A DNA stretch of 6,164 nt from a virus, in the IMG/VR virus record IMGVR_UViG_3300045988_002819. One strand, 5' to 3'. The notes under the pieces are model-generated. The model was not told the DNA's origin. It saw only the letters and a program-made list of their open reading frames with translations, and made no database searches. The translations under genes were made by a program, and so were the position numbers. This document shows, piece by piece, positions 1-6,164 of the stretch (positions are counted from its first letter, which is position 1; every line of letters begins with the position of its first letter).

Positions 1-141
1 TCAATTCTTTCGTACTCTTTCAATTTTTCGCAGATTGCGTTTGCCCATTTATTATTTAAGTTGTACTCTGCCTTCAGTTCGTCTTTGTCATTGCTTCTCC
101 ATCCTTCTTTGTAAAGTGCTGTTGCACAGCTTTCAACTTCA
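1..141. repeat. Terminal redundancy, copy 1 (identical to 6024-6164). It marks a circular 6,023-nt replicon written linearly.
   Basis: Base-by-base comparison of 1-141 with 6024-6164 shows no mismatch. An ORF reads continuously across the implied junction (6023 joined to 1). Confidence 0.97.
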
Positions 142-182
142 TCTGCATAGAAAGTCTTGTCCATGATATAGCTTTTAATCAT
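1..182 (-). CDS. Hypothetical 64-aa protein, 5' portion. The ORF runs off the window start and finishes at 6023-6011 on the circle: MIKSYIMDKTFYADEVESCATALYKEGWRSNDKDELKAEYNLNNKWANAICEKLKEYERIDKND.
   Basis: ATG at 182-180 is preceded by GAGG with a 9-nt spacer. The frame is open to base 1 and continues in frame through the circular junction to TAA at 6013-6011. The ATG overlaps the stop of the upstream ORF (ATGATTAA). It is missing from the supplied ORF track only because the window edge cuts it. Confidence 0.6.
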   Translation of the reverse strand, partial: MIKSYIMDKTFYADEVESCATALYKEGWRSNDKDELKAEYNLNNKWANAICEKLKEYERI

Positions 183-186
183 TTTT
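158..186. repeat. 29-nt exact direct repeat, copy B (tgtccatgatatagcttttaatcattttt). Its partner is at 5994-6022.
   Basis: Exact match read directly. On the minus strand it is AAAAATGATTAAAAGCTATATCATGGACA, i.e. the upstream gene's end (K N D stop) plus the downstream gene's start (MIKSYIMD). Confidence 0.95.
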
Positions 187-408
187 TTCAACCTCGAATT
201 CATATAGGCCATTCCATCCTAGGATCCAGCATTCAAATTCTTCAATTGCATCATTCCACCGGTATAGTGTTTCTTCATACCTTTTCAGTTTTTCGTTCCA
301 TGTTTTATCTATGCTGTATTCGTAGATTCCTTTTCTTACTGTTTCGCCGTTCATCAGTCTATTAATGGTTTCTCTGCTCAGTCTAGGTTTCCTTGTGTAC
401 TCTTTCAT
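175..408 (-). CDS. Hypothetical 77-aa protein, or 80 aa if the GTG at 417 is used. Residues LSRETINRLMNGETVRKG resemble a short HTH recognition-helix/turn segment.
   Basis: The open frame 175-417 is in the ORF track. ATG at 408 lies 11 nt after AAAGGA, while GTG at 417 is only 2 nt from it. It is the first ORF downstream of the strong promoter at 441-469, and its stop TAA (177-175) overlaps the next ATG. Confidence 0.6.
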   Translation of the reverse strand: MKEYTRKPRLSRETINRLMNGETVRKGIYEYSIDKTWNEKLKRYEETLYRWNDAIEEFECWILGWNGLYEFEVEKND

Positions 409-440
409 TTTGAGCACCGTCCTTTCTTTTCCTTGACTCT

Positions 441-469
441 ATTATATCACTTGTCAATAGGTTTTTCAA
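441..469 (-). promoter_or_regulatory. Sigma70-type promoter on the minus strand: -35 TTGAAA (469-464), 17-nt spacer, -10 TATAAT (446-441).
   Basis: The minus strand reads caTTGAAAaacctattgacaagtgaTATAATagagtcaaggaaaagaaaggacg. That is a 6/6 -10, a 5/6 -35 and optimal 17-nt spacing, followed by an SD and an ORF start about 25-35 nt downstream. Confidence 0.7.
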
Positions 470-674
470 TGATTTTGCTGTTTTGTAATATATTTGTAAC
501 CTTCTCTTGCAATCCGGTTTTGCTCCTTTGTTTTGAAAGCGCTTTAGCGCCTTGCCGTGTGTAGCGTAAGCGGAACTCGGCTAATCCATTCATTTTGAGC
601 GCTGTGCGCGTTTTCAACACTTTCAACACTTTCAACAGGTTTTCCACAAAATGTTGCACAAAGGTTTTCGTCAT
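447..674 (-). CDS. Doubtful 75-aa basic ORF. It may be part of the non-coding control region.
   Basis: The frame is open with ATG at 674, but there is no convincing SD. The first ~20 codons are encoded by the TTCAACA iteron array (LLKVLKVLK), and the 3' end contains the promoter. It lies outside the promoter-to-terminator unit that covers every other gene. Confidence 0.3.
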   Translation of the reverse strand: MTKTFVQHFVENLLKVLKVLKTRTALKMNGLAEFRLRYTRQGAKALSKQRSKTGLQEKVTNILQNSKIIEKPIDK

Positions 675-785
675 TTTGACGAACTTTCAACATTTCAACA
701 AGTTTTCAACAAAACTTTCAACAGCGTTTTTTGCTTTTTATTTACGCTTTAGCGTTAAATTTTAGTACTTTTCAACTTTTCCACA
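613..785. repeat. Iteron array. TTCAACA starts at 613, 622, 631, 686, 694, 705 and 717; TTCAACT at 771; the variant TTCCACA at 642 and 779. On the minus strand the motif is TGTTGAA(A).
   Basis: Counted directly. The first three copies are an exact 9-nt tandem (ttcaacact). A given 7-mer is expected about 0.4 times per strand in 6 kb, and here 8-10 copies fall within 173 nt. Confidence 0.85.
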
Positions 786-790
786 TTGCC

Positions 791-805
791 TACTACTACT
801 ACTAC
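791..805. repeat. (TAC)5 trinucleotide microsatellite.
   Basis: tactactactactac read directly, in non-coding sequence between the iterons and the AT-rich core. Confidence 0.9.
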
Positions 806-819
806 AACAAGTTAATATA

Positions 820-872
820 ATATACGCGCGTGTGCGCGTGCGCGTTTACGCGCGTGTGCGCACGTGCGTACA
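820..872. repeat. Two 26-nt perfectly alternating purine-pyrimidine tracts (820-845 and 847-872), rich in CG/TG and sharing the 14-mer acgcgcgtgtgcgc. This is Z-DNA-prone and multiply self-complementary.
   Basis: The R/Y alternation was checked base by base and only T846 interrupts it. Embedded palindromes are acgcgcgt (824-831) and cgcacgtgcg (859-868). The composition contrasts sharply with the rest of the genome. Confidence 0.85.
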
Positions 873-878
873 GCGGCA

Positions 879-894
879 GCCCCAAGACTGGGGC
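879..894. other. Hairpin: 6-bp GC-rich stem (gcccca/tggggc) with 4-nt loop agac.
   Basis: Inverted repeat read directly, in the non-coding region. Confidence 0.7.
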
Positions 895-901
895 GCGACG
901 C

Positions 902-928
902 AAGGGGTTGACTTTAAGTCAACCCCTT
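902..928. other. Perfect 12-bp-stem hairpin (aaggggttgact / agtcaacccctt) with 3-nt loop tta.
   Basis: Perfect inverted repeat read directly. A short T-run (TTT) follows only on the plus strand. On the gene-sense minus strand it is followed by gcgtcg, so it is not an obvious terminator for the phage genes. Confidence 0.8.
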
Positions 929-972
929 TGAATCACTGAATAGTTTGATAACATGGAGCTTTTAAATTACAA

Positions 973-1006
973 TAGCCCAGTACCTTACTTGATAGGTACT
1001 GGGCTA
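973..1006 (-). terminator. 13-bp-stem hairpin (tagcccagtacct / aggtactgggcta, 8-nt loop), 10 nt downstream of the VP4 stop. Candidate intrinsic terminator of the genome-length operon.
   Basis: Perfect inverted repeat. On the minus strand it is followed by TTGTAATTTAAAAG, a U-rich but interrupted tail. Confidence 0.5.
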
Positions 1007-1016
1007 AGTGACACTG

Positions 1017-2036
1017 TTAAAGTGTCCCCTTCTTCTTCATCTGCTTCTTTATCACTCTCTCTTTCGTTTTACACTGTTCTGCAAAGTCTGCATTTTCGTA
1101 CTTTAGCCGGTTTTCTGCAATTGTTTTTGCTTGTCTGTTCTGTTTAATTCTCCACAATCTTTGTGGGTTTTCAGCTTCCATCATTTTTTCATAATAGCGT
1201 GGAATTTGTGCGTGTTTGCCGTTTGTGCATTGGATGTACCCTTGTCTCCAGATTTCTGCTTTGTGTTCTTGGTAATAGTGGTCTCCTAGACCTGGTTTAA
1301 GGCTCATACATGCAAAAGGTTTTTGTTGTCCTAGTTTGTAATATGCATTTGCTTTCTTGCCGTCTATTTCGTACATTTTTTTTGTGACGTATCCTGCAAC
1401 GTATCTATATGTTTCCGGTACTGCTTGTGCTATTTGGATTTGACCCATGCCCCATAGTTTTGCTAGCCATTCACTTGTGTAGTATCCGTTGTGTTGTATC
1501 TTGTATAGATGCTCTAGGTCTGTTGGCCTCCATCCATATAGTATCATATGGTAATGCGGCCTTGCCGTCTGTTCTCCGTATTCTCCCGCTACAAAATAGC
1601 GTAATTTGCCCCTATAAGCCTTTCTGAGGCGTTTTAAGAACTTTTGAACGTCAGTATATAGCAACGTTTGGACGCTTTCAGGGCGCTTCTCTCCCGGCTT
1701 CCAGACGTATTGTACTTTTCGCATGATTTCGCCTGTGTTTATTATCATGCCCGGTACGTGGTCGTCATCATAGGTTAGTGTGATAAACCAAACTTCTTCT
1801 CTTGGATAATCTCGCGCTTCTAGTTCTATTCGTGTTGTCCAGTCTTCGCGTTGTCGGATTCTGCATCCGATGCATTGCCCACATGGTATTAGCATGATAT
1901 CTTTTCTATACATCAAATCTTCATACTTGAGCTGTTTCCCGCTTATTTCAGAAAAGCGGGCAAGTGAATACACCCGCCCGCTTATGTCTTTGTTTTCCGG
2001 GTTGTACAGCCTTATTAATGGCTTGTAACAACTCAT
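1017..2036 (-). CDS. VP4: Replication initiation protein VP4 (HUH rolling-circle endonuclease, phiX174 gene A analogue), 339 aa.
   Basis: Motifs are FITLTYDD, the HUH motif PHYHMILYG, the catalytic tyrosine pair YVAGYVTKK, and an N-terminal Cys cluster (C3 ... CGQCIGC). ATG at 2036 overlaps the VP2 stop (ATGA), with AGGTGA 9 nt upstream. Confidence 0.93.
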   Translation of the reverse strand: MSCYKPLIRLYNPENKDISGRVYSLARFSEISGKQLKYEDLMYRKDIMLIPCGQCIGCRIRQREDWTTRIELEARDYPREEVWFITLTYDDDHVPGMIINTGEIMRKVQYVWKPGEKRPESVQTLLYTDVQKFLKRLRKAYRGKLRYFVAGEYGEQTARPHYHMILYGWRPTDLEHLYKIQHNGYYTSEWLAKLWGMGQIQIAQAVPETYRYVAGYVTKKMYEIDGKKANAYYKLGQQKPFACMSLKPGLGDHYYQEHKAEIWRQGYIQCTNGKHAQIPRYYEKMMEAENPQRLWRIKQNRQAKTIAENRLKYENADFAEQCKTKERVIKKQMKKKGTL

Positions 2037-2902
2037 TTAAGATAATCACCTGGCTTTCGTTTTTCTCCGTATGACCCTGTTTTGTCTTGCTGTTTTATAC
2101 TTCTGCTTTGTTCTGTGCCTTTTACTTTTTCTACTTTATCTGTTGCCTTTGTGATGGCTTTGCTTGTGTTGTCCTTGACTTTTGTAAGTGCTTTTTGCAG
2201 TCCGTACGGCGACATATGTGTTTCGCTAAGCATTTGTTGCCAGCTTTGCGCCGCATTATACCAATCGCTTTGACTCCAGCTTGAACTTGAGTATGCGTTT
2301 GGTACAAATCCTCCGCTTCTGCTTACTCCTAGTGCACTGCTACTTGCAAGTCCCATACTCGCCCCGCTGATTGTTCCTGCACTGCCGCCCGGTGTGCTTG
2401 CTCCGCCGTTTGCAAAGGCTAAGATTGGGTTAAGCCCTGCTTTTCTCATGTCTTCTACAGCTCGCTGATATGCTGTGTTTGACATGTGTTCTTGCCATTC
2501 ACGGTTTGCGAGTGCTTCCGCGCTGTTGTAGTTCATGGCTACGCTGTTTTCAATGTGGTTGTATACGCCTTGCATGATTGCTGACAAGGTATTGTATCCC
2601 ATTTGTTTTAACATGCTTTGGCTGTTATATTTACCTTGCATGGCTGCTTCTTGTCCTTGGTATGCATATGCCTTTTTAAGCCATTCATCAACTTGCTGTA
2701 TGTTTGTTCCTGCTTGGCTTCCGCTTTCGGAGTGTCCACCGCCCTGGCTTACGCTTCCGCCTTGGCTTTGGCTTCCGCCTTCTTGACCCCATCCACCGAA
2801 TGCTCCAGCGATTTGTTTTCCAGCGTTTGCAAATGTTCCAACTGTGTTTGCAACGTTTCCAGCTACGTTGAGCGCTGTTAAGAATCCTGATAATGCTCCC
2901 AT
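2033..2902 (-). CDS. VP2: Minor capsid / DNA pilot protein VP2, 289 aa.
   Basis: It sits immediately after VP1 as in gokushoviruses. It has a Gly/Ala-rich hydrophobic N-terminus, a Gly/Ser/Gln low-complexity stretch and the conserved-looking segment YQRAVEDMRKAGLNPILAF. Confidence 0.85.
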   Translation of the reverse strand: MGALSGFLTALNVAGNVANTVGTFANAGKQIAGAFGGWGQEGGSQSQGGSVSQGGGHSESGSQAGTNIQQVDEWLKKAYAYQGQEAAMQGKYNSQSMLKQMGYNTLSAIMQGVYNHIENSVAMNYNSAEALANREWQEHMSNTAYQRAVEDMRKAGLNPILAFANGGASTPGGSAGTISGASMGLASSSALGVSRSGGFVPNAYSSSSWSQSDWYNAAQSWQQMLSETHMSPYGLQKALTKVKDNTSKAITKATDKVEKVKGTEQSRSIKQQDKTGSYGEKRKPGDYLK

Positions 2903-2930
2903 TTAAAAATAGCCCGGATTTCTCCGGGCT
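2903..2930 (-). terminator. Hairpin AGCCCGG-AGAAAU-CCGGGCU followed by AUUUUUAA, between VP1 and VP2. Terminator-like attenuator and/or a structural bridge between the VP2 SD and its ATG.
   Basis: The minus strand reads TAAGAAAGGAGGAAGCCCGGAGAAATCCGGGCTATTTTTAAATG. The 7-bp stem has 5 GC pairs, followed by a U5 run that ends at the VP2 start codon. Confidence 0.6.
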
Positions 2931-2940
2931 TCCTCCTTTC

Positions 2941-4641
2941 TTACAGTTTGTACAAGCCCGGTACGCTGTACAACGGCATACGTCTTGTGGTTTTGTTTGC
3001 TACTCGGATTGCGCCGAAAAATTGTGGTTCATCCTGTACGATTAGAGTGCGTGCAATTTCTTCCTTTCCTTCTGCCATCCATTCCTGTGATAGCGTCGGT
3101 ACTTCTGAATAGTTGTCGGCATAGTGCCAGAAGTCTAGTGTTCCGGTTGCGTTGCTTCTCATGAGGCCTGATACGCGGTTAGGCTTCATGCGGTAGTCTG
3201 CCCATGCTTCTTGATATCCAAACGTCTCTTCATCGCTTGCTCCGCCGGTGAGCATGATTTCTTTATTTTTTACAGGCTGTTCGCCTATATTTGCAAACTG
3301 AGGTACATAGTAGTCTAGCCTGTCCATTCTGCTCCAGAAGCGTTCCAAGCCTTGCTGGTAACTGTGATTGTGTCGCACGCAACATACGCCGATTACGAAG
3401 CCGTGCTCTTCAAACGATTTGGTAAAACTGCTTTCGTTTACCGGCGTTACTGACATTGCGCCAGTTTCGCCGATTGGTGTATCTGTGTTGGTCTGCTGTC
3501 CGCTTGTCTGAACGATTTGATTCATATTGACGTGGTATCTGCCACCGCCTAGGTATTCCGGAATCTGTGCAGTTTTATCGCTGATTACGACATTCCATAG
3601 TGCTTGCACCTGTTCGCGGTAACGGCTGCCGCCTCGTGCTAGTGCTTCGTAGTACTGCTGTACTGCTATGGTTTTTCTCAGGTCGTTGATGGTTGCTGCG
3701 GTTATGCTTCCAAGGTCTGCATACATCCAGCCGCCCGCACCTGTTTCACCGGATGTATTTTCGGTTCCGGTAAATTCCATCTTCTTTTTTTCTCCTGGTT
3801 GTCCTCTTTCTTGTGTATAGATTAGACTTCCGGGCTTGTTCGATGCACTTGTTGACCCCAGTACCATTTCTACCGGTGACGGATAATCTTCGTATTGGTA
3901 ATGGGTATCGCCTAATCTTATAGGTGCGTTACCCTCCATTGGCAGCGTCACTTCCGGCCCACGCTGAGGATACGGTAAGCAGCTGGTAAAGTAGTCATGG
4001 AACTTGTTTACCGGTAAGCAGAATCCTCCTTTGTACGCGTTTAAAAGTCTGATTTCTTCTGTTGCGTCTTCATCTTTTCCGCTTTCTGTTCCTGTTGAAT
4101 ATGTGATGAATTCGCTTTTGCTTGTGTATGTTGCCTGGTTATCTACGTTTTCGTCTCGAAAAAATTCGTTCCAGATTTTCACGTATGCTCTTACCGGCAG
4201 TGCGTTGATATTGAAACTTTTATTGATTTTTGTCGGCACTCCCATGTAATCTAGGATTGTTTTTTCATGCGGTTTATAGTCTCCTTCTGTGCCGCCTATT
4301 AAGATTTGTGGGACTTTATAGGTTTTTGTTGGCATCCACGGTGTGCTTTCGACTTCTCCCATGAAGTATTTGAAGTCGTCCCACAGAATTCTGTTGGGAC
4401 AGTAGAAATAGTAGAAGTCAATAAATGCATCGTCCATTACTGGATATTTCGGCGTTGTCATTCGGATGATTGCTGATGTATTTACGTTGAATGTGTCGCC
4501 CGGTAATACTTCGTCCACGTAAAACGGAATCAGTTTGCCGGAATCAAACGTTGTTAAAATTGTCTGGTCACGGTTGAACCGCGTTCGACTTGCCTTCATT
4601 TTTGGAATTTGGTTGAAGTGCCGTTCATTGTTTCGGTTCAA
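2941..4641 (-). CDS. VP1: Major capsid protein VP1 (F-type jelly-roll capsid protein of Microviridae), 566 aa, TTG start.
   Basis: The N-terminal signature RHFNQIP...SRTRFNRD...TTFDSGKLIPFYVDEVLPGDTF matches remembered gokushovirus VP1 N-termini. Its size and a long Gly/Ser/Thr-rich insertion are typical of the gokushovirus threefold protrusion loop. AAGGAGG lies 7 nt upstream of TTG at 4641. Confidence 0.95.
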   Translation of the reverse strand: MNRNNERHFNQIPKMKASRTRFNRDQTILTTFDSGKLIPFYVDEVLPGDTFNVNTSAIIRMTTPKYPVMDDAFIDFYYFYCPNRILWDDFKYFMGEVESTPWMPTKTYKVPQILIGGTEGDYKPHEKTILDYMGVPTKINKSFNINALPVRAYVKIWNEFFRDENVDNQATYTSKSEFITYSTGTESGKDEDATEEIRLLNAYKGGFCLPVNKFHDYFTSCLPYPQRGPEVTLPMEGNAPIRLGDTHYQYEDYPSPVEMVLGSTSASNKPGSLIYTQERGQPGEKKKMEFTGTENTSGETGAGGWMYADLGSITAATINDLRKTIAVQQYYEALARGGSRYREQVQALWNVVISDKTAQIPEYLGGGRYHVNMNQIVQTSGQQTNTDTPIGETGAMSVTPVNESSFTKSFEEHGFVIGVCCVRHNHSYQQGLERFWSRMDRLDYYVPQFANIGEQPVKNKEIMLTGGASDEETFGYQEAWADYRMKPNRVSGLMRSNATGTLDFWHYADNYSEVPTLSQEWMAEGKEEIARTLIVQDEPQFFGAIRVANKTTRRMPLYSVPGLYKL

Positions 4642-5039
4642 TCTTCTCCCTCCTTTGCTTTAGCTTCTTTTTCAGGTTCTTTTTCCGTTGTCATTTTTTT
4701 CAGTTCTTCAAGCTTCATGGCGTTTGCCTGTGCGGTCGCTATCATTCGGTGATATTCATGAATGTTCTGCGGAAATTCGGTGATGTCTACTTCTGCCCCC
4801 GTCATTGCTCCTTCGGATAAGCTTTTAAGAAACTCCGGGTCAAAACTTGCTTTTCGAATAATGTTTTTGATGTCGCATTCGTCTGCATAGCTTTCGATTT
4901 CCTGTTTAATGTCGATTGGTTCAGTTTCTTGAAGTACTTCTTCGCCTTTCTCGTCTTTTGTCCAGACGTATTGCTTTCGGAATTTTTCTCCTGATTCGGA
5001 AAAGAAGGGCTCTCGCCCTTCTTCGTACCGTTTATTCAT
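4638..5039 (-). CDS. VP3: Internal scaffolding protein VP3, 133 aa from ATG 5039. The maximal ORF extends to 5093 (151 aa).
   Basis: The motif ADECDIKNIIRK matches the conserved ECDI(N)NI motif of gokushovirus VP3. It has an acidic C-terminus and sits directly upstream of VP1. GGGAGGG lies 8 nt upstream of ATG 5039, whereas ATG 5093 has GAGG with no spacer. Confidence 0.85.
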   Translation of the reverse strand: MNKRYEEGREPFFSESGEKFRKQYVWTKDEKGEEVLQETEPIDIKQEIESYADECDIKNIIRKASFDPEFLKSLSEGAMTGAEVDITEFPQNIHEYHRMIATAQANAMKLEELKKMTTEKEPEKEAKAKEGED

Positions 5040-5271
5040 TCGGCTTGCCCTCCCATACTTTTTCCTTCCAGTTCTGGAAAAGTCCCGTCTCATCCTCGAA
5101 TTCTGCCAGCTTATAACCTGTGTAGTCCTGTGGACTCTGCCCGATAAAGGTCTTTTCGTCCTTTGCCATTACACTGCACATTCTCGCAAAAGTTGCATCG
5201 TTCTTGCTTTCGCCTACCCATGCATAGCATTTTGCCACGTCGTCCCAAATACCATAGTAGTTGTTTCTCAT
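5032..5271 (-). CDS. Small conserved gokushovirus non-structural protein (ORF5/VP5-like), 79 aa.
   Basis: The pattern YYGIWDDVA...NDATFARM...SPQDYTGYKLAEFEDETG resembles the Y.I.D.VA...ND..A.R.F...P.DY.LY.IGEFDDETG pattern I recall from small gokushovirus proteins located upstream of VP3. AAAGGA lies 9 nt upstream of ATG 5271. Confidence 0.75.
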   Translation of the reverse strand: MRNNYYGIWDDVAKCYAWVGESKNDATFARMCSVMAKDEKTFIGQSPQDYTGYKLAEFEDETGLFQNWKEKVWEGKPNE

Positions 5272-5504: not shown

Positions 5505-5627
5505 TTACTCCTTTTCGTTTTCGCTGATGCTGTCATGCAGTGCATGATAGATTTCGTCAAGCTTTTCAAGAATCTGCATCATGATGCGGATTGCCTGTTT
5601 GACGTCTTTAATAGAAATCAGTGCCAT
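5505..5627 (-). CDS. Hypothetical 40-aa amphipathic helical peptide (MALISIKDVKQAIRIMMQILEKLDEIYHALHDSISENEKE). The maximal ORF extends to 5720.
   Basis: AAGGGGG lies 6 nt upstream of ATG 5627, immediately after the peptidase stop. The longer 71-aa version would overlap the peptidase by 92 nt and has no SD. There is no transmembrane segment. Confidence 0.45.
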   Translation of the reverse strand: MALISIKDVKQAIRIMMQILEKLDEIYHALHDSISENEKE

Positions 5628-5628
5628 T

Positions 5629-6018
5629 TTATACCCCCTTTCTGTATTTTTTTGTGCGTGTGTCGATGTGTACCCACGTGCTATATACGATAATGCCGCA
5701 TTCATTCGGGATGATTTCATTCAGTTTGTTGGCAATTTCTTTTGCACTCATTCCGTTTATTCGAATGTCTGCGGCCATACCGCGCATATGGTATGAGTAT
5801 TTTGCACCGCCTACCGCTTTATTCCTTGTCGGTGTTCGGTATCCGCTGTTTATGATTACAGGTTTTCCGACTCTGTTTCTGAGGATGTCTAGGATTGACA
5901 CTAGGTAGCTGTCTATAAAAACTACCTGTGAACCGTCTTTGCAAGCAAATTCCTTTACTTTGAAGTGCTGTCCTACTTTTTCGTTTGCGTCTGTGTCCAT
6001 GATATAGCTTTTAATCAT
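5629..6018 (-). CDS. Zinc D,D-/L,D-peptidase-type peptidoglycan hydrolase (Peptidase_M15_3 / M15A-like, LAS-fold), 129 aa. Candidate endolysin.
   Basis: FKVKEFACKDG ... INSGYRTPTRNKAVGGAKYSYHMRGMAADI ... WVHIDTR gives the SxHxxGxAxD (H-x6-D) plus distal H zinc-ligand pattern of this family. I place the start at ATG 6018; the ORF track uses TTG 6027. The ATG overlaps the stop of the 64-aa ORF. Confidence 0.85.
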   Translation of the reverse strand: MIKSYIMDTDANEKVGQHFKVKEFACKDGSQVVFIDSYLVSILDILRNRVGKPVIINSGYRTPTRNKAVGGAKYSYHMRGMAADIRINGMSAKEIANKLNEIIPNECGIIVYSTWVHIDTRTKKYRKGV

Positions 6019-6022
6019 TTTT
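5994..6022. repeat. 29-nt exact direct repeat, copy A. Its partner is at 158-186, 187 nt away on the circle.
   Basis: Exact match read directly. It spans the stop of the 64-aa ORF and the first 8 codons of the peptidase gene. Confidence 0.95.
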
Positions 6023-6164
6023 GTCAATTCTTTCGTACTCTTTCAATTTTTCGCAGATTGCGTTTGCCCATTTATTATTTAAGTTGTACTCTGCCTTCAG
6101 TTCGTCTTTGTCATTGCTTCTCCATCCTTCTTTGTAAAGTGCTGTTGCACAGCTTTCAACTTCA
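6011..6164 (-). CDS. The same 64-aa hypothetical ORF, 3' portion plus the redundant copy. It is 5'-truncated by the window end.
   Basis: 6024-6164 duplicates 1-141. The reading frame continues ...EYERIDKND then TAA at 6013-6011, which overlaps the ATG (6018-6016) of the peptidase gene. Confidence 0.6.
   Translation of the reverse strand, partial: EVESCATALYKEGWRSNDKDELKAEYNLNNKWANAICEKLKEYERIDKND
6024..6164. repeat. Terminal redundancy, copy 2 (identical to 1-141).
   Basis: Same comparison as above. The 141-nt length equals the default largest k-mer of a common metagenome assembler, which suggests an assembly overlap of a circular contig rather than a biological repeat (inference). Confidence 0.97.

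What the first reader, a model, noticed from the sequence alone, without database searches (positions are those of the whole stretch)
5994..6022. A whole stop/start gene junction is duplicated exactly (29 nt), giving two neighbouring genes the same first 8 codons
AAAAATGATTAAAAGCTATATCATGGACA occurs at 6022-5994 and again at 186-158 on the minus strand, 187 nt apart on the circle. Each copy holds the last codons and stop of the upstream gene (K-N-D-TAA) overlapped with the start of the downstream gene (ATGATTAA, MIKSYIMD). So the 64-aa ORF and the peptidase share an identical N-terminal octapeptide and translation-initiation context, and the 77-aa and 64-aa ORFs share the C-terminus KND. A chance 29-mer repeat in 6 kb is essentially impossible. 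Just outside the core the two upstream proteins remain similar at the protein level only (LKEYERIDKND versus LYEFEVEKND). That points either to an old duplication with a selectively maintained core or to recent gene conversion. The repeats exactly bracket one small-gene cassette. That is the geometry expected for cassette gain or loss by template switching or slipped recombination during rolling-circle replication. The core could also be a conserved translational-coupling element.
Basis: seen in the sequence. Interest (0 to 1): 0.7.

Follow-up and report, generated by a model that had tools for sequence, protein, structure and literature searches.

The report
Duplicated gene-start left by cassette stacking
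The exact 29-base repeat is real: it is the start region of this small gut phage's cell-wall-cutting (lysis) gene, copied a second time when recombination stacked two alternative small accessory genes in front of that gene, so it is a scar of gene gain rather than a new kind of element.

Summary
The contig is a 6023-nt circular gokushovirus-like microvirus, and the 29-mer occurs twice on the gene strand, 187 nt apart (34 nt with one mismatch, sharp borders).

The repeat is the ribosome-binding spacer, ATG and first 8 codons of the M15 peptidase (endolysin) gene. About 60-100 related genomes carry it once, always at the peptidase start; none carries it twice.

The stretch between a conserved promoter/leader and this junction is a variable slot. 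It is empty or holds one small ORF from at least 12 unrelated families.

Family A (77 aa) and family B (54-58 aa) each occur alone in relatives, directly upstream of the peptidase. This genome has both, as A-junction-B-junction-peptidase. Copy 1 ends exactly at B's ancestral start codon, in the shared octamer CATGGACA.

The backbone is 93-96% identical and collinear with a B-only relative over the ~5.0 kb held, apart from a 256-nt insertion. Four assemblies hold the same arrangement, so it is not an assembly artefact.

A and B are not homologous, so the 'old duplication' reading fails. The 'cassette gain by recombination' reading holds.

Translational coupling is plausible but untested. The promoter-like match is probably incidental.

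The parts
5994..6027 (-). Junction copy 2 (J2), the resident copy. It reads TTGACAAAA-ATG plus peptidase codons 2-8 and the first base of codon 9. It also carries the stop (TAA 6013..6011) of the 64-aa ORF.
   Evidence: The same element lies at the peptidase start in 64 of 97 fetched loci at up to 7 of 34 mismatches. It is identical in L001, L002 and L205.
158..191 (-). Junction copy 1 (J1), the extra copy. It reads TTGAAAAAA-ATG-ATT-AAA-AGC-TAT-ATC-ATGGACA. It carries the stop of the 77-aa ORF (TAA 177..175) and the new start of the 64-aa ORF (ATG 182..180). Its last 7 nt (164..158) are the ancestral ATGGACA start of family B.
   Evidence: and alignment A1.
175..408 (-). Cassette A, a 77-aa ORF (80 aa if read from the upstream GTG at 417). 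Function unknown. A GAGG Shine-Dalgarno at 195..192, inside its last codons, serves the next start.
   Evidence: There are 20 homologues at 69-100% identity. In every genome inspected other than this one they lie immediately upstream of the peptidase. Pfam and PHROG give no significant match. The structure model has no significant PDB match.
1..182 (-). Cassette B, N-terminal 60 codons of the 64-aa ORF. The six codons MIKSYI come from the peptidase; the ancestral ORF follows, starting MDKTFYADE. The ORF wraps the contig end.
   Evidence: B-only relatives start at ATGGACAAG with their own Shine-Dalgarno.
6011..6164 (-). Cassette B, C-terminal part of the same ORF. Positions 6024-6164 repeat 1-141. 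The ORF ends ...EKLKEYERIDKND-TAA.
5629..6018 (-). M15 peptidase (putative endolysin), 129 aa. This is the gene whose start region is the repeated element.
   Evidence: Pfam PF08291, E = 1.2e-23. PHROG 894 endolysin, E = 7.8e-43.
441..469 (-). Promoter-like site TTGAAA-17-TATAAT with an upstream TG. Together with the conserved leader down to the A start codon it forms the left border of the variable slot.
   Evidence: 11 of 12 matches. It is conserved in front of different cassettes.
1..141 (.). Terminal redundancy of the contig (identical to 6024-6164), which marks a circular genome of 6023 nt.
   Evidence: repeat family D1.

Best explanation
**What the repeat is.** The repeated 29-34 nt (J) is the translation-initiation region and first 8 codons of the M15 peptidase (endolysin) gene of a gut gokushovirus-like microvirus. 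It consists of a Shine-Dalgarno GAGG, the spacer TTGACAAAA, the ATG, and then ATT AAA AGC TAT ATC ATG GAC A.

**The slot.** In this clade the short stretch between a conserved promoter/leader and J is a variable slot. It is either empty or holds one small accessory ORF. That ORF usually terminates inside J, at the TGA in TTGACA or the TAA in ATGATTAA.

**The event (inferred).**
1. Two co-circulating variants met in one cell. One had leader-A-J-peptidase and the other had leader-B-J-peptidase.
2. They recombined out of register. The strand was copied through A and J as far as CATGGACA (peptidase codons 6-9).
3. It then continued at the identical octamer CATGGACA at the start of B. The mechanism would be template switching or microhomology-mediated crossover during rolling-circle replication.
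4. The product is leader-A-J1-B-J2-peptidase.

**Consequences.**
- Shown from sequence: B lost its own ribosome-binding site and now starts at the peptidase-type ATG with six extra residues (MIKSYI).
- Shown from sequence: A ends KND-TAA over that ATG, exactly as it does over the peptidase ATG in A-only phages.
- Inferred: the two direct repeats 187 nt apart could recombine to delete B precisely and restore an A-only genome.

The repeat is therefore a recombination scar of cassette gain, not an element that needs two copies to work.
For: - **J is single-copy elsewhere.** It occurs once, at the peptidase start, in 64 of 97 fetched relatives. A degenerate MIKSYIMD scan hit 53 IMG/VR and 48 metagenome contigs. 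The only two-hit contigs are terminal redundancies or concatemers.
- **A alone.** A-family ORFs sit directly upstream of the peptidase and end EFEVDKND* over ATGATTAA in L100, L009, L154/155 and L156 (L153 stops just upstream).
- **B alone.** B-family ORFs start ...ACC-ATGGACAAG with their own Shine-Dalgarno and end over J in L083, L021, L205 and L206.
- **The join.** In alignment A1 the window follows the A-type sequence up to ...TATATC and the B-type sequence from ATGGACAAGACTTTC onward.
- **Backbone.** It is 93-96% nt identical and collinear with the B-only contig IMGVR_UViG_3300045988_000917 over the 5.0 kb held. The exception is 256 nt (421..166) absent there.
- **Slot survey.** The slot is empty (33-51 nt between the anchor and the ATG) or holds one ORF from 12-14 unrelated families, scattered with respect to peptidase identity.
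- **Not an assembler product.** The same arrangement at 99.96-100% identity is in a SPAdes-style NODE contig, the k141-named contig (141-nt terminal overlap) that is this window, a Logan contig and a scaffold.
- **Identical J exists in the B lineage.** The B-only genome L205 has a J identical to window copy 2.
Against: - No donor was found. The closest A homologue is 86% identical in protein.
- The A-lineage junctions seen differ from the window 29-mer at 2-5 positions. 29/29 identity of J1 and J2 therefore needs either parents with near-identical backbones or later homogenisation.
- A third arrangement complicates the history. NCBI protein DAN03503.1 has a 5' fragment of B, read in another frame, upstream of the same J1-B. 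It shares the A in TTGA[A]A with the window's J1.
- No read-level data and no experiment were available.
Confidence: 0.55

Rival explanations
1. Same scar, different route. A B-only genome first made a 187-nt tandem duplication of the B+J unit. This would arise by slippage or unequal crossover between the CATGGACA at the start of B and the CATGGACA in the peptidase, which lie exactly 187 nt apart. The upstream B copy was later replaced by A, through ordinary recombination in the conserved leader and in J with an A-type phage.
For: - In B-only genomes with a 58-aa B, the two ATGGACA sites are exactly 187 nt apart (arithmetic).
- The protein DAN03503.1 shows a genome with a 5' fragment of B upstream of J1-B. 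That is what a partly deleted B-J-B-J intermediate would look like.
- It and the window share the unusual A in TTGA[A]A. Of the 17 A-family homologues whose sequence was read, 14 have D (GAC) where the window has E; the other three end differently.
- This route also explains the 29/29 identity of J1 and J2.
Against: - It needs two events rather than one.
- No complete B-J-B-J genome was seen among more than 100 contigs.
- The DNA encoding DAN03503.1 could not be retrieved.
Confidence: 0.27
2. J is a functional module that is useful in two copies, either a translational-coupling (termination-reinitiation) adaptor or a sigma-70 promoter. Its exact identity would then be maintained by selection or gene conversion.
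For: - J2 is the best sigma-70-like match in the window: TTGACA-17-TATCAT, 11 of 12. J1 scores 10 of 12.
- J holds stop codons in both non-peptidase frames.
- 27 of 44 slot ORFs terminate inside J.
- Synonymous sites of peptidase codons 2-14 are more conserved than the rest of the gene: 0.89 versus 0.74, Mann-Whitney p = 0.005.
Against: - A transcript from this 'promoter' would start after peptidase codon 9 and after B's ATG, so it could express neither gene.
- The -35 hexamer is replaced by GGGAGC in several relatives.
- The number of promoter-like hits in the window is not above shuffles: 11 versus 9.4.
- Another part of the peptidase gene (codons 89-112) is at least as conserved at synonymous sites.
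- None of the roughly 100 relatives examined keeps two copies.
- There is no RNA structure: z = +1.5 and +1.3.
Confidence: 0.1
3. Assembly artefact: two co-occurring strains, A-type and B-type, were joined by the assembler.
For: Many closely related microviruses co-occur in similar samples, and the repeat length of 29 is of the order of typical assembler k-mer sizes (my own knowledge).
Against: - The A-type and B-type sequences share only 8 nt (CATGGACA) at the novel joint, far below any assembler k.
- The identical arrangement appears in four contigs whose names point to different assemblers and sources. One differs by a SNP.
- The Logan contig spans both copies.
Confidence: 0.02
4. Ancient tandem duplication of one small gene with its junction, where the flanks diverged beyond recognition and the core was conserved.
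For: The shared KND end and a weak L-x-E-[YF]-E resemblance.
Against: - Profile-profile comparison of A and B gives probability 1.5%.
- The predicted folds differ: helix plus beta-sheet versus three-helix bundle.
- Each family occurs alone in relatives.
- Distant B homologues with no peptidase downstream still have ...EKLKEYE, so that motif is native to B.
Confidence: 0.02

Closest known systems
Phage genome mosaicism: module exchange at gene boundaries, by illegitimate or homeologous recombination or through short conserved flanking sequences. Sources: Martinsohn, Radman and Petit 2008 (PMC2327257) and Hatfull-lab mycobacteriophage comparisons (PMC3029335).
   Same: - Unrelated ORFs are swapped between conserved flanks, here the leader on the left and the peptidase start on the right.
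- The novel joint lies exactly at a start codon and uses 8 nt of shared sequence.
- The recombinant keeps all reading frames intact.
   Different: - This is a 6-kb ssDNA microvirus. That group has been described as having small accessory repertoires and little mosaicism (PMC9239249).
- The crossover was out of register, so it added a cassette and duplicated the junction instead of swapping.
Morons: extra genes inserted between genes that are adjacent in related phages (Hendrix and colleagues; from my own knowledge).
   Same: - A is an extra ORF between elements that are adjacent in the closest relative.
- Distant B homologues form promoter-gene-terminator units.
   Different: In this genome neither A nor B has its own promoter and terminator. 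They sit in the leader of the lysis-gene operon and overlap their neighbours' start and stop codons.
Overlapping stop/start junctions and translational coupling in compact operons, of the ATGA or TAATG type (from my own knowledge).
   Same: - The upstream ORF stops 5 nt after, or 6-8 nt before, the next ATG.
- The Shine-Dalgarno lies inside the upstream ORF's last codons.
   Different: The 8-nt overlap ATGATTAA has been copied with its context to a second gene. Coupling has not been tested.
Deletion and duplication between short direct repeats by replication slippage or copy choice in ssDNA phages and rolling-circle replicons (from my own knowledge).
   Same: Direct repeats of 29-34 nt lie 187 nt apart on a rolling-circle genome. 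The event started from an 8-nt microhomology.
   Different: Loss of the 187-nt unit was not observed at assembly level. Reads were not available.
Hypervariable regions of gokushoviruses that confer superinfection exclusion. Source: Kirchberger et al. 2021 PNAS, as cited in PMC9239249 and summarised in PMC10002423.
   Same: A hotspot of variation among closely related microviruses, possibly with a role in conflict between phages.
   Different: Those regions lie inside the DNA pilot protein gene. This slot is a set of separate small ORFs upstream of the peptidase gene, of unknown function.
Integron gene-cassette arrays
   Same: One or more promoterless cassettes are stacked behind a common promoter, with a repeated sequence at each cassette boundary.
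   Different: There is no integrase, no attI or attC, and no inverted-repeat structure in J. The resemblance is in geometry only.

Membership tests
Recombination scar of cassette stacking (out-of-register crossover) | Each parental arrangement exists on its own in relatives | tested here: met
   A-J-peptidase is seen. B-J-peptidase is seen.
Recombination scar of cassette stacking (out-of-register crossover) | The novel joint coincides with a short sequence shared by both parents | tested here: met
   CATGGACA lies at peptidase codons 6-9 and at the start of B.
Recombination scar of cassette stacking (out-of-register crossover) | The rest of the genome is collinear with a relative that lacks the extra segment | tested here: met
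   93-96% identity to L083 over 5.0 kb, with a 256-nt insertion.
Recombination scar of cassette stacking (out-of-register crossover) | The arrangement is real in the population, not produced by an assembler | tested here: met
   Four contigs whose names point to different assemblers and sources, at 99.96-100% identity. Reads were not examined.
Translational coupling junction | The upstream stop overlaps or abuts the downstream start, with the Shine-Dalgarno inside the upstream ORF | tested here: met
   ATGATTAA at both copies. GAGG lies 9 nt upstream of the ATG at copy 1. Copy 2 has only a weaker GAAAGA.
Translational coupling junction | Downstream translation depends on translation of the upstream ORF | not testable with these tools
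   This needs reporter fusions.
Sigma-70 promoter | -35 and -10 hexamers with 16-18 nt spacing | tested here: met
   TTGACA-17-TATCAT scores 11 of 12 and TTGAAA-17-TATCAT scores 10 of 12.
Sigma-70 promoter | Placed so that its transcript can express a downstream gene | tested here: not met
   The predicted start falls after peptidase codon 9 and after B's ATG. There is no in-frame start codon nearby.
Sigma-70 promoter | Hexamers conserved beyond what coding and ribosome-binding constraints explain | tested here: inconclusive
   TTGAC is the majority base at 56-86% per position and is replaced by GGGAGC in several genomes. The -10 lies in Y-I-M codons.
Integron cassette / attC | Integrase gene and attC-type imperfect inverted repeats at cassette ends | tested here: not met
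   All large ORFs are microvirus core genes or the peptidase. There is no inverted repeat at J.
Moron | The inserted gene has its own promoter and terminator | tested here: not met
   A uses the resident leader and promoter and has no terminator. Terminator-like sites lie elsewhere.
Structured RNA element | A stable or conserved fold around the repeat | tested here: not met
   100-nt contexts fold less stably than shuffles: z = +1.52 and +1.30.

The most novel reading that the evidence does not exclude
J plus the conserved leader may act as an integrase-free cassette dock.
- The peptidase start region would be kept nearly invariant because it serves two roles.
- First, it would be the homology arm through which small accessory ORFs are swapped among co-infecting microviruses.
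- Second, it would be a universal adaptor, with stop codons in both other frames and the Shine-Dalgarno just upstream. That would end any incoming ORF and couple the lysis gene to it.
- The array could then grow by stacking, as caught here, or shrink by recombination between J copies.
- This would give microviruses a fast-turnover accessory locus, for example for inter-phage conflict or anti-defence.
Probability: 0.15. Interest if true: 0.6.

Novelty: new member of a known kind. Interest (0 to 1): 0.33.

Why it matters
Microviruses are usually described as having very few accessory genes and little mosaicism (PMC9239249). Three points follow from this case.

- A clade of gut microviruses has a hotspot just upstream of the endolysin gene. 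At least a dozen unrelated small ORFs replace one another there.
- This genome catches the step by which such a tiny genome gains a gene. An out-of-register crossover at an 8-nt match duplicated a translation start and gave the downstream ORF a new ribosome-binding site and N-terminus.
- The arrangement gives a concrete, testable substrate for measuring gene gain and loss rates in ssDNA phages: two 29-nt repeats 187 nt apart.

It is not a new type of genetic element.

Tried and rejected
- **RNA structure around either copy.** No stable fold.
- **Homology between A and B.** BLASTP gave only E = 0.034 in a different register. hhalign gave probability 1.5%.
- **Function of A and B.** No significant Pfam or PHROG match.
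  - The AlphaFold model of A has pLDDT 72, and only one of five models is confident. The model of B has pLDDT 84 and is a three-helix bundle.
  - Neither model has a PDB match with E below 0.2.
- **Other genomes with two junction copies.**
  - The exact 29-mer in IMG/VR hit 2 contigs, one copy each.
  - The degenerate MIKSYIMD pattern hit 53 IMG/VR and 48 metagenome contigs. The only two-hit contigs were terminal redundancies or concatemers.
  - The novel joint YIMDKTFYADE had 0 hits in JGI metagenomes.
- **DNA for the two other records with the MIKSYI-B protein** (JGI 6959-nt contig; NCBI DAN03503.1). Not on record. The wrapped 64-aa ORF itself could not be looked up.
- **GenBank phages.** Only distant relatives, from pig faeces and human blood, were found. 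None has the arrangement.
- **Promoter reading.** Considered and rated low, for positional reasons.
- **Integron-like reading.** Rejected: no integrase and no attC.
- **Kirchberger 2021 paper.** Not held in the library. It is used only as cited by others.
Full report
**1. What the window is**

The first 141 nt equal the last 141 nt, so the contig is a circle of 6023 nt. All genes lie on the minus strand. From they are:
- replication initiator, 2036..1017 (PF23343)
- DNA pilot protein, 2902..2033 (PHROG 8742)
- major capsid protein F, 4641..2941 (PF02305, E = 8e-137)
- scaffold protein, 5093..4638 (PF09675)
- an ORF5-like protein, 5271..5032
- small basic ORFs
- an M15_3 peptidase, 6018..5629 (PF08291, E = 1e-23; PHROG endolysin, E = 8e-43)

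This is a gokushovirus-like microvirus. M15 peptidases of this kind were reported in human-gut gokushoviruses and proposed to be endolysins (PMC3394797). Between the replication gene and the peptidase lie a ~550-nt repeat-rich region, a strong promoter-like site (469..441), the 77-aa ORF 'A' (408..175) and the 64-aa ORF 'B' (182..1 joined to 6023..6011).

**2.

- The 29-mer occurs exactly twice, at 186..158 and 6022..5994 on the minus strand. There were no matches in 200 shuffles.
- The copies are 187 nt apart on the circle. They extend to 34 nt with a single mismatch (TTGAAA versus TTGACA), and identity drops to background on both sides.
- Both copies contain K-N-D-TAA of the upstream ORF overlapped with ATGATTAA of the downstream ORF.

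**3. What the repeated sequence is**

- The exact 29-mer occurs once each in two IMG/VR microviruses, both times at the start of the peptidase gene.
- Among 97 loci fetched through the peptidase or through B, 64 carry one copy of the 34-mer at up to 7 mismatches, always at the peptidase ATG. None carries two.
- A degenerate scan for MIKSYIMD hit 53 IMG/VR and 48 metagenome contigs. The only two double hits are terminal redundancy or concatemers, with spacings of 5490 and 5755 nt.
- In genomes where nothing lies between the leader and the peptidase, the sequence reads ...GAAAGGGAGG-TTGACAAA-ATG.

So J is simply the peptidase's Shine-Dalgarno, spacer, ATG and first eight codons. The first ATG is the true start, because in some relatives codon 7 is CTA and in others the protein begins MAIKCYIMD.

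**4. The slot**

I extracted the stretch between a conserved anchor in the promoter (CTATTGACAWGT) and the peptidase ATG from about 75 genomes.
- About a third have an essentially empty slot (33-51 nt between the anchor and the ATG).
- The rest hold one small ORF of 44-100 aa, from 12-14 families with no detectable similarity to one another.
- These families are scattered with respect to peptidase identity. One family, for example, occurs with peptidases 75-91% identical to the window's.
- The leader in front of the cassettes (...AGAAAGGAAGGTGCTCAAA-ATG) is conserved across families.
- 27 of 44 slot ORFs end inside J. They stop either at the TGA within TTGACA or at the TAA within ATGATTAA, which are the stops that J offers in its two non-peptidase frames.
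- Only the window has two cassettes.

**5. The two cassettes occur singly elsewhere**

*Family A.*
- It has 20 homologues at 69-100% identity.
- In every inspected genome other than this one, A lies directly upstream of the peptidase. These are L100, L009, L153, L154/155 and L156.
- In all but L153 it ends ...LYEFEVDK[N/D]D-TAA over the peptidase ATG. L153 stops just upstream.

*Family B.*
- It is a conserved family of 51-58 aa.
- In the closest relatives it begins with its own Shine-Dalgarno and ACC-ATG-GAC-AAG (MDKTFYADE...). It ends over J, either as ...ERIDKND-TAA or, after a 1-nt indel, as ...ERN-TGA.
- In more distant microviruses that lack the peptidase at that position, B is a stand-alone promoter-gene-terminator unit and still ends ...EKLKEYE.

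So that motif is native to B, and the shared KND is imposed by J. A and B are not homologous. Their models differ: helix plus sheet versus three-helix bundle.

**6. How the second copy arose**

- Alignment A1 shows the window following the A-type sequence (leader, A, GAGG-TTGA.AAAAATGATTAAAAGCTATATC). From ATGGACA onward it follows the B-type sequence (ATGGACAAGACTTTCTATGCAGATGAA...).
- The peptidase start (ATC-ATG-GAC-ACA) and the B start (ACC-ATG-GAC-AAG) share the octamer CATGGACA. The joint lies in it.
- Genome-wide, the window is 93-96% identical and collinear with the B-only contig IMGVR_UViG_3300045988_000917 over the 5.0 kb held. The exception is 256 nt (421..166) with no counterpart there.
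- A-bearing contigs are only 76-88% identical over most of the backbone, though 84-92% over the peptidase region.
- The leader in the window is of the A/L002 type from just after the ATTGACA anchor. The imported segment therefore runs from the promoter to J1.

The simplest history is an out-of-register recombination between an A-type and a B-type variant. One crossover is illegitimate, at CATGGACA. The other is ordinary, in the conserved promoter region or elsewhere on the circle. This step is inferred. Template switching during rolling-circle replication is a plausible mechanism, but nothing here distinguishes it from break-and-join.

**7. Consequences that can be read from the sequence**

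- B has lost its own ribosome-binding site. Upstream of its old ATG now lies AAAAGCTATATC.
- B is preceded by the peptidase-type start with GAGG 9 nt upstream, inside A's last codons. It is therefore most likely made as MIKSYI plus B.
- Gene callers chose a 74-aa version from an upstream ATG that is not conserved in A homologues.
- A ends over this ATG exactly as it ends over the peptidase ATG in A-only phages.
- Recombination between J1 and J2 would remove B and one J precisely, regenerating an A-only genome. Whether this happens was not testable.

**8. Artefact excluded**

- The same arrangement, with both 29-mers, is present in ENA ERZ1744007 NODE_4426 (6100 nt, coverage 16, one SNP).
- It is also in ERZ28597864 scaffold_2070 (8830 nt, a concatemer with 2 SNPs between its repeated parts).
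- It is also in ERZ27272127 k141_133450 (this window) and in Logan SRR3992982_49879.
- The parental sequences share only 8 nt at the novel joint, too short for any de Bruijn assembler to bridge.
- Some of these assemblies may derive from the same sample. At least two sequence versions exist.

**9. A complication**

The 90%-identity cluster of the 64-aa protein contains mostly 58-aa B-only forms. It also contains NCBI DAN03503.1 (86 aa). Its first 20 residues, MQMKLKAVQQHFTKKDGEAM, are exactly the alternative-frame translation of B's own 5' part. They are followed by KK-MIKSYIMDKTFYADEV....

That genome therefore has a 5' fragment of B, instead of A, upstream of the same J1-B. It shares the A of TTGA[A]A with the window, whereas 14 of the 17 A homologues whose sequence was read have D (GAC) where the window has E.

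This suggests an alternative route: a 187-nt tandem duplication of B+J first, then replacement of the upstream copy. The two CATGGACA sites in a B-only genome are exactly 187 nt apart. It could equally be a secondary recombinant of a window-like genome. Its DNA could not be retrieved.

Either way J was duplicated by an out-of-register event at CATGGACA. Either way, variants around copy 1 exist in nature.

The exact 29/29 identity of J1 and J2 is notable. A-lineage junctions differ at 2-5 positions, and the closest B-only relative differs at 2. The identity fits parents with near-identical backbones, since L205 has an identical J. It also fits the tandem-duplication route or later conversion.

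**10. Other readings**

*Promoter.*
- J2 is the best sigma-70-like site in the window (11 of 12).
- The total number of such sites is no higher than in shuffles.
- The predicted start would lie after codon 9 of the peptidase and after B's ATG.
- The -35 is replaced by GGGAGC in several relatives.

*RNA structure.* None was found.

*Nucleotide-level constraint.*
- Synonymous sites of codons 2-14 are more conserved than the gene average: 0.89 versus 0.74, p = 0.005.
- Codons 89-112 are as conserved or more so.
- This is compatible with ordinary selection on a translation start, or with homogenisation by recombination at the slot border.

*Coupling.* It fits the geometry but is untested.

**11. 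Comparison with what is known**

- The phenomenon belongs to phage mosaicism by recombination at gene boundaries and short conserved flanks (PMC2327257, PMC3029335), and to duplication or deletion at short repeats in rolling-circle replicons.
- It is not an integron-like system (no integrase or attC) and not a classical moron.
- The hypervariable regions described for gokushoviruses lie in the pilot protein gene (as cited in PMC9239249 and PMC10002423), not here.
- Microviruses have been described as having limited accessory repertoires and little exchange beyond genus level (PMC9239249). A slot with at least 12 interchangeable small ORFs among close relatives is a modest addition to that picture.

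**12. Verdict**

The element is the peptidase's translation-start region present twice as a recombination scar. Interest is low to moderate.

Noticed in passing
window 420-1016, mainly 600-730 and 823-870: The region between the replication gene and the slot is packed with repeats. There are at least 6 copies of the 9-mer CTTTCAACA (minus strand TGTTGAAAG) at 600-730. There is also a GC-rich alternating purine/pyrimidine block, TACGCGCGTGTGCGCGTGCGCGT, repeated at 823-869. Both are also visible in relatives L001, L083 and L021. They could be iterons or origin-related sequences.
   Followed up: partly
window 447-674 (minus strand): A 75-aa ORF (MTKTFVQHFVENLLKVLKVLK...) runs through the 9-mer repeats and ends in the promoter-like site. 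Similar ORFs exist in L083, L015 and L022. It is unclear whether this is a gene or a by-product of the repeats.
   Followed up: no
window 902-928: A perfect 11-bp hairpin, AAGGGGTTGAC-TTTAA-GTCAACCCCTT, lies in the non-coding region and is also present in L083. A terminator-like hairpin follows the replication gene at 1006..973. Another with a T-run lies between the capsid and pilot genes at 2930..2911.
   Followed up: no
L205 1-2540 (ENA ERZ1744028 NODE_5984, 8265 nt): A microvirus 92-94% identical to the window, B-only and with an identical junction, is joined about 35 nt upstream of B to an IS66 transposase fragment, a ParA-like ATPase and a ParB_N protein. This could be an integrated or plasmid-borne microvirus, which would be a clue to host and lifestyle, or a chimeric contig. 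Only 6718 of the 8265 nt were held.
   Followed up: partly
NCBI protein DAN03503.1 (P0028); no DNA held: This is a second arrangement with a duplicated junction. A 5' fragment of B, read in another frame, sits upstream of the same J1-B. It shows that variants around copy 1 exist.
   Followed up: partly
window about 5683-5754 (peptidase codons 89-112): Synonymous sites here are as conserved as at the 5' end of the gene. The stretch overlaps the start of the 71-aa ORF 5720..5505 in another frame and the approach to the next gene.
   Followed up: no
L084-L095, about 3450-3720 in each: In more distant microviruses the B-family gene is a self-contained unit. It has an extended -10 promoter (TGTATAAT), its own Shine-Dalgarno, the gene, and then a hairpin with a long T-run. 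No peptidase follows.
   Followed up: partly
slot of relatives, e.g. L023 (8781-nt contig), L002, L013, L014, L015, L025, L030, L032, L080: At least 12 unrelated families of small ORFs, all of unknown function, occupy the same position upstream of the peptidase. One 100-aa ORF sits on an unusually long 8.8-kb contig.
   Followed up: partly
window 409-440 versus 183-200, and relatives: The leader in front of the cassettes (AGAAAGGAAGGTGCTCAAA-ATG) resembles the peptidase start region (AGAAAGAGAGGATTGACAAAA-ATG). Either start regions were duplicated in earlier stacking events or the two sequences converged.
   Followed up: no
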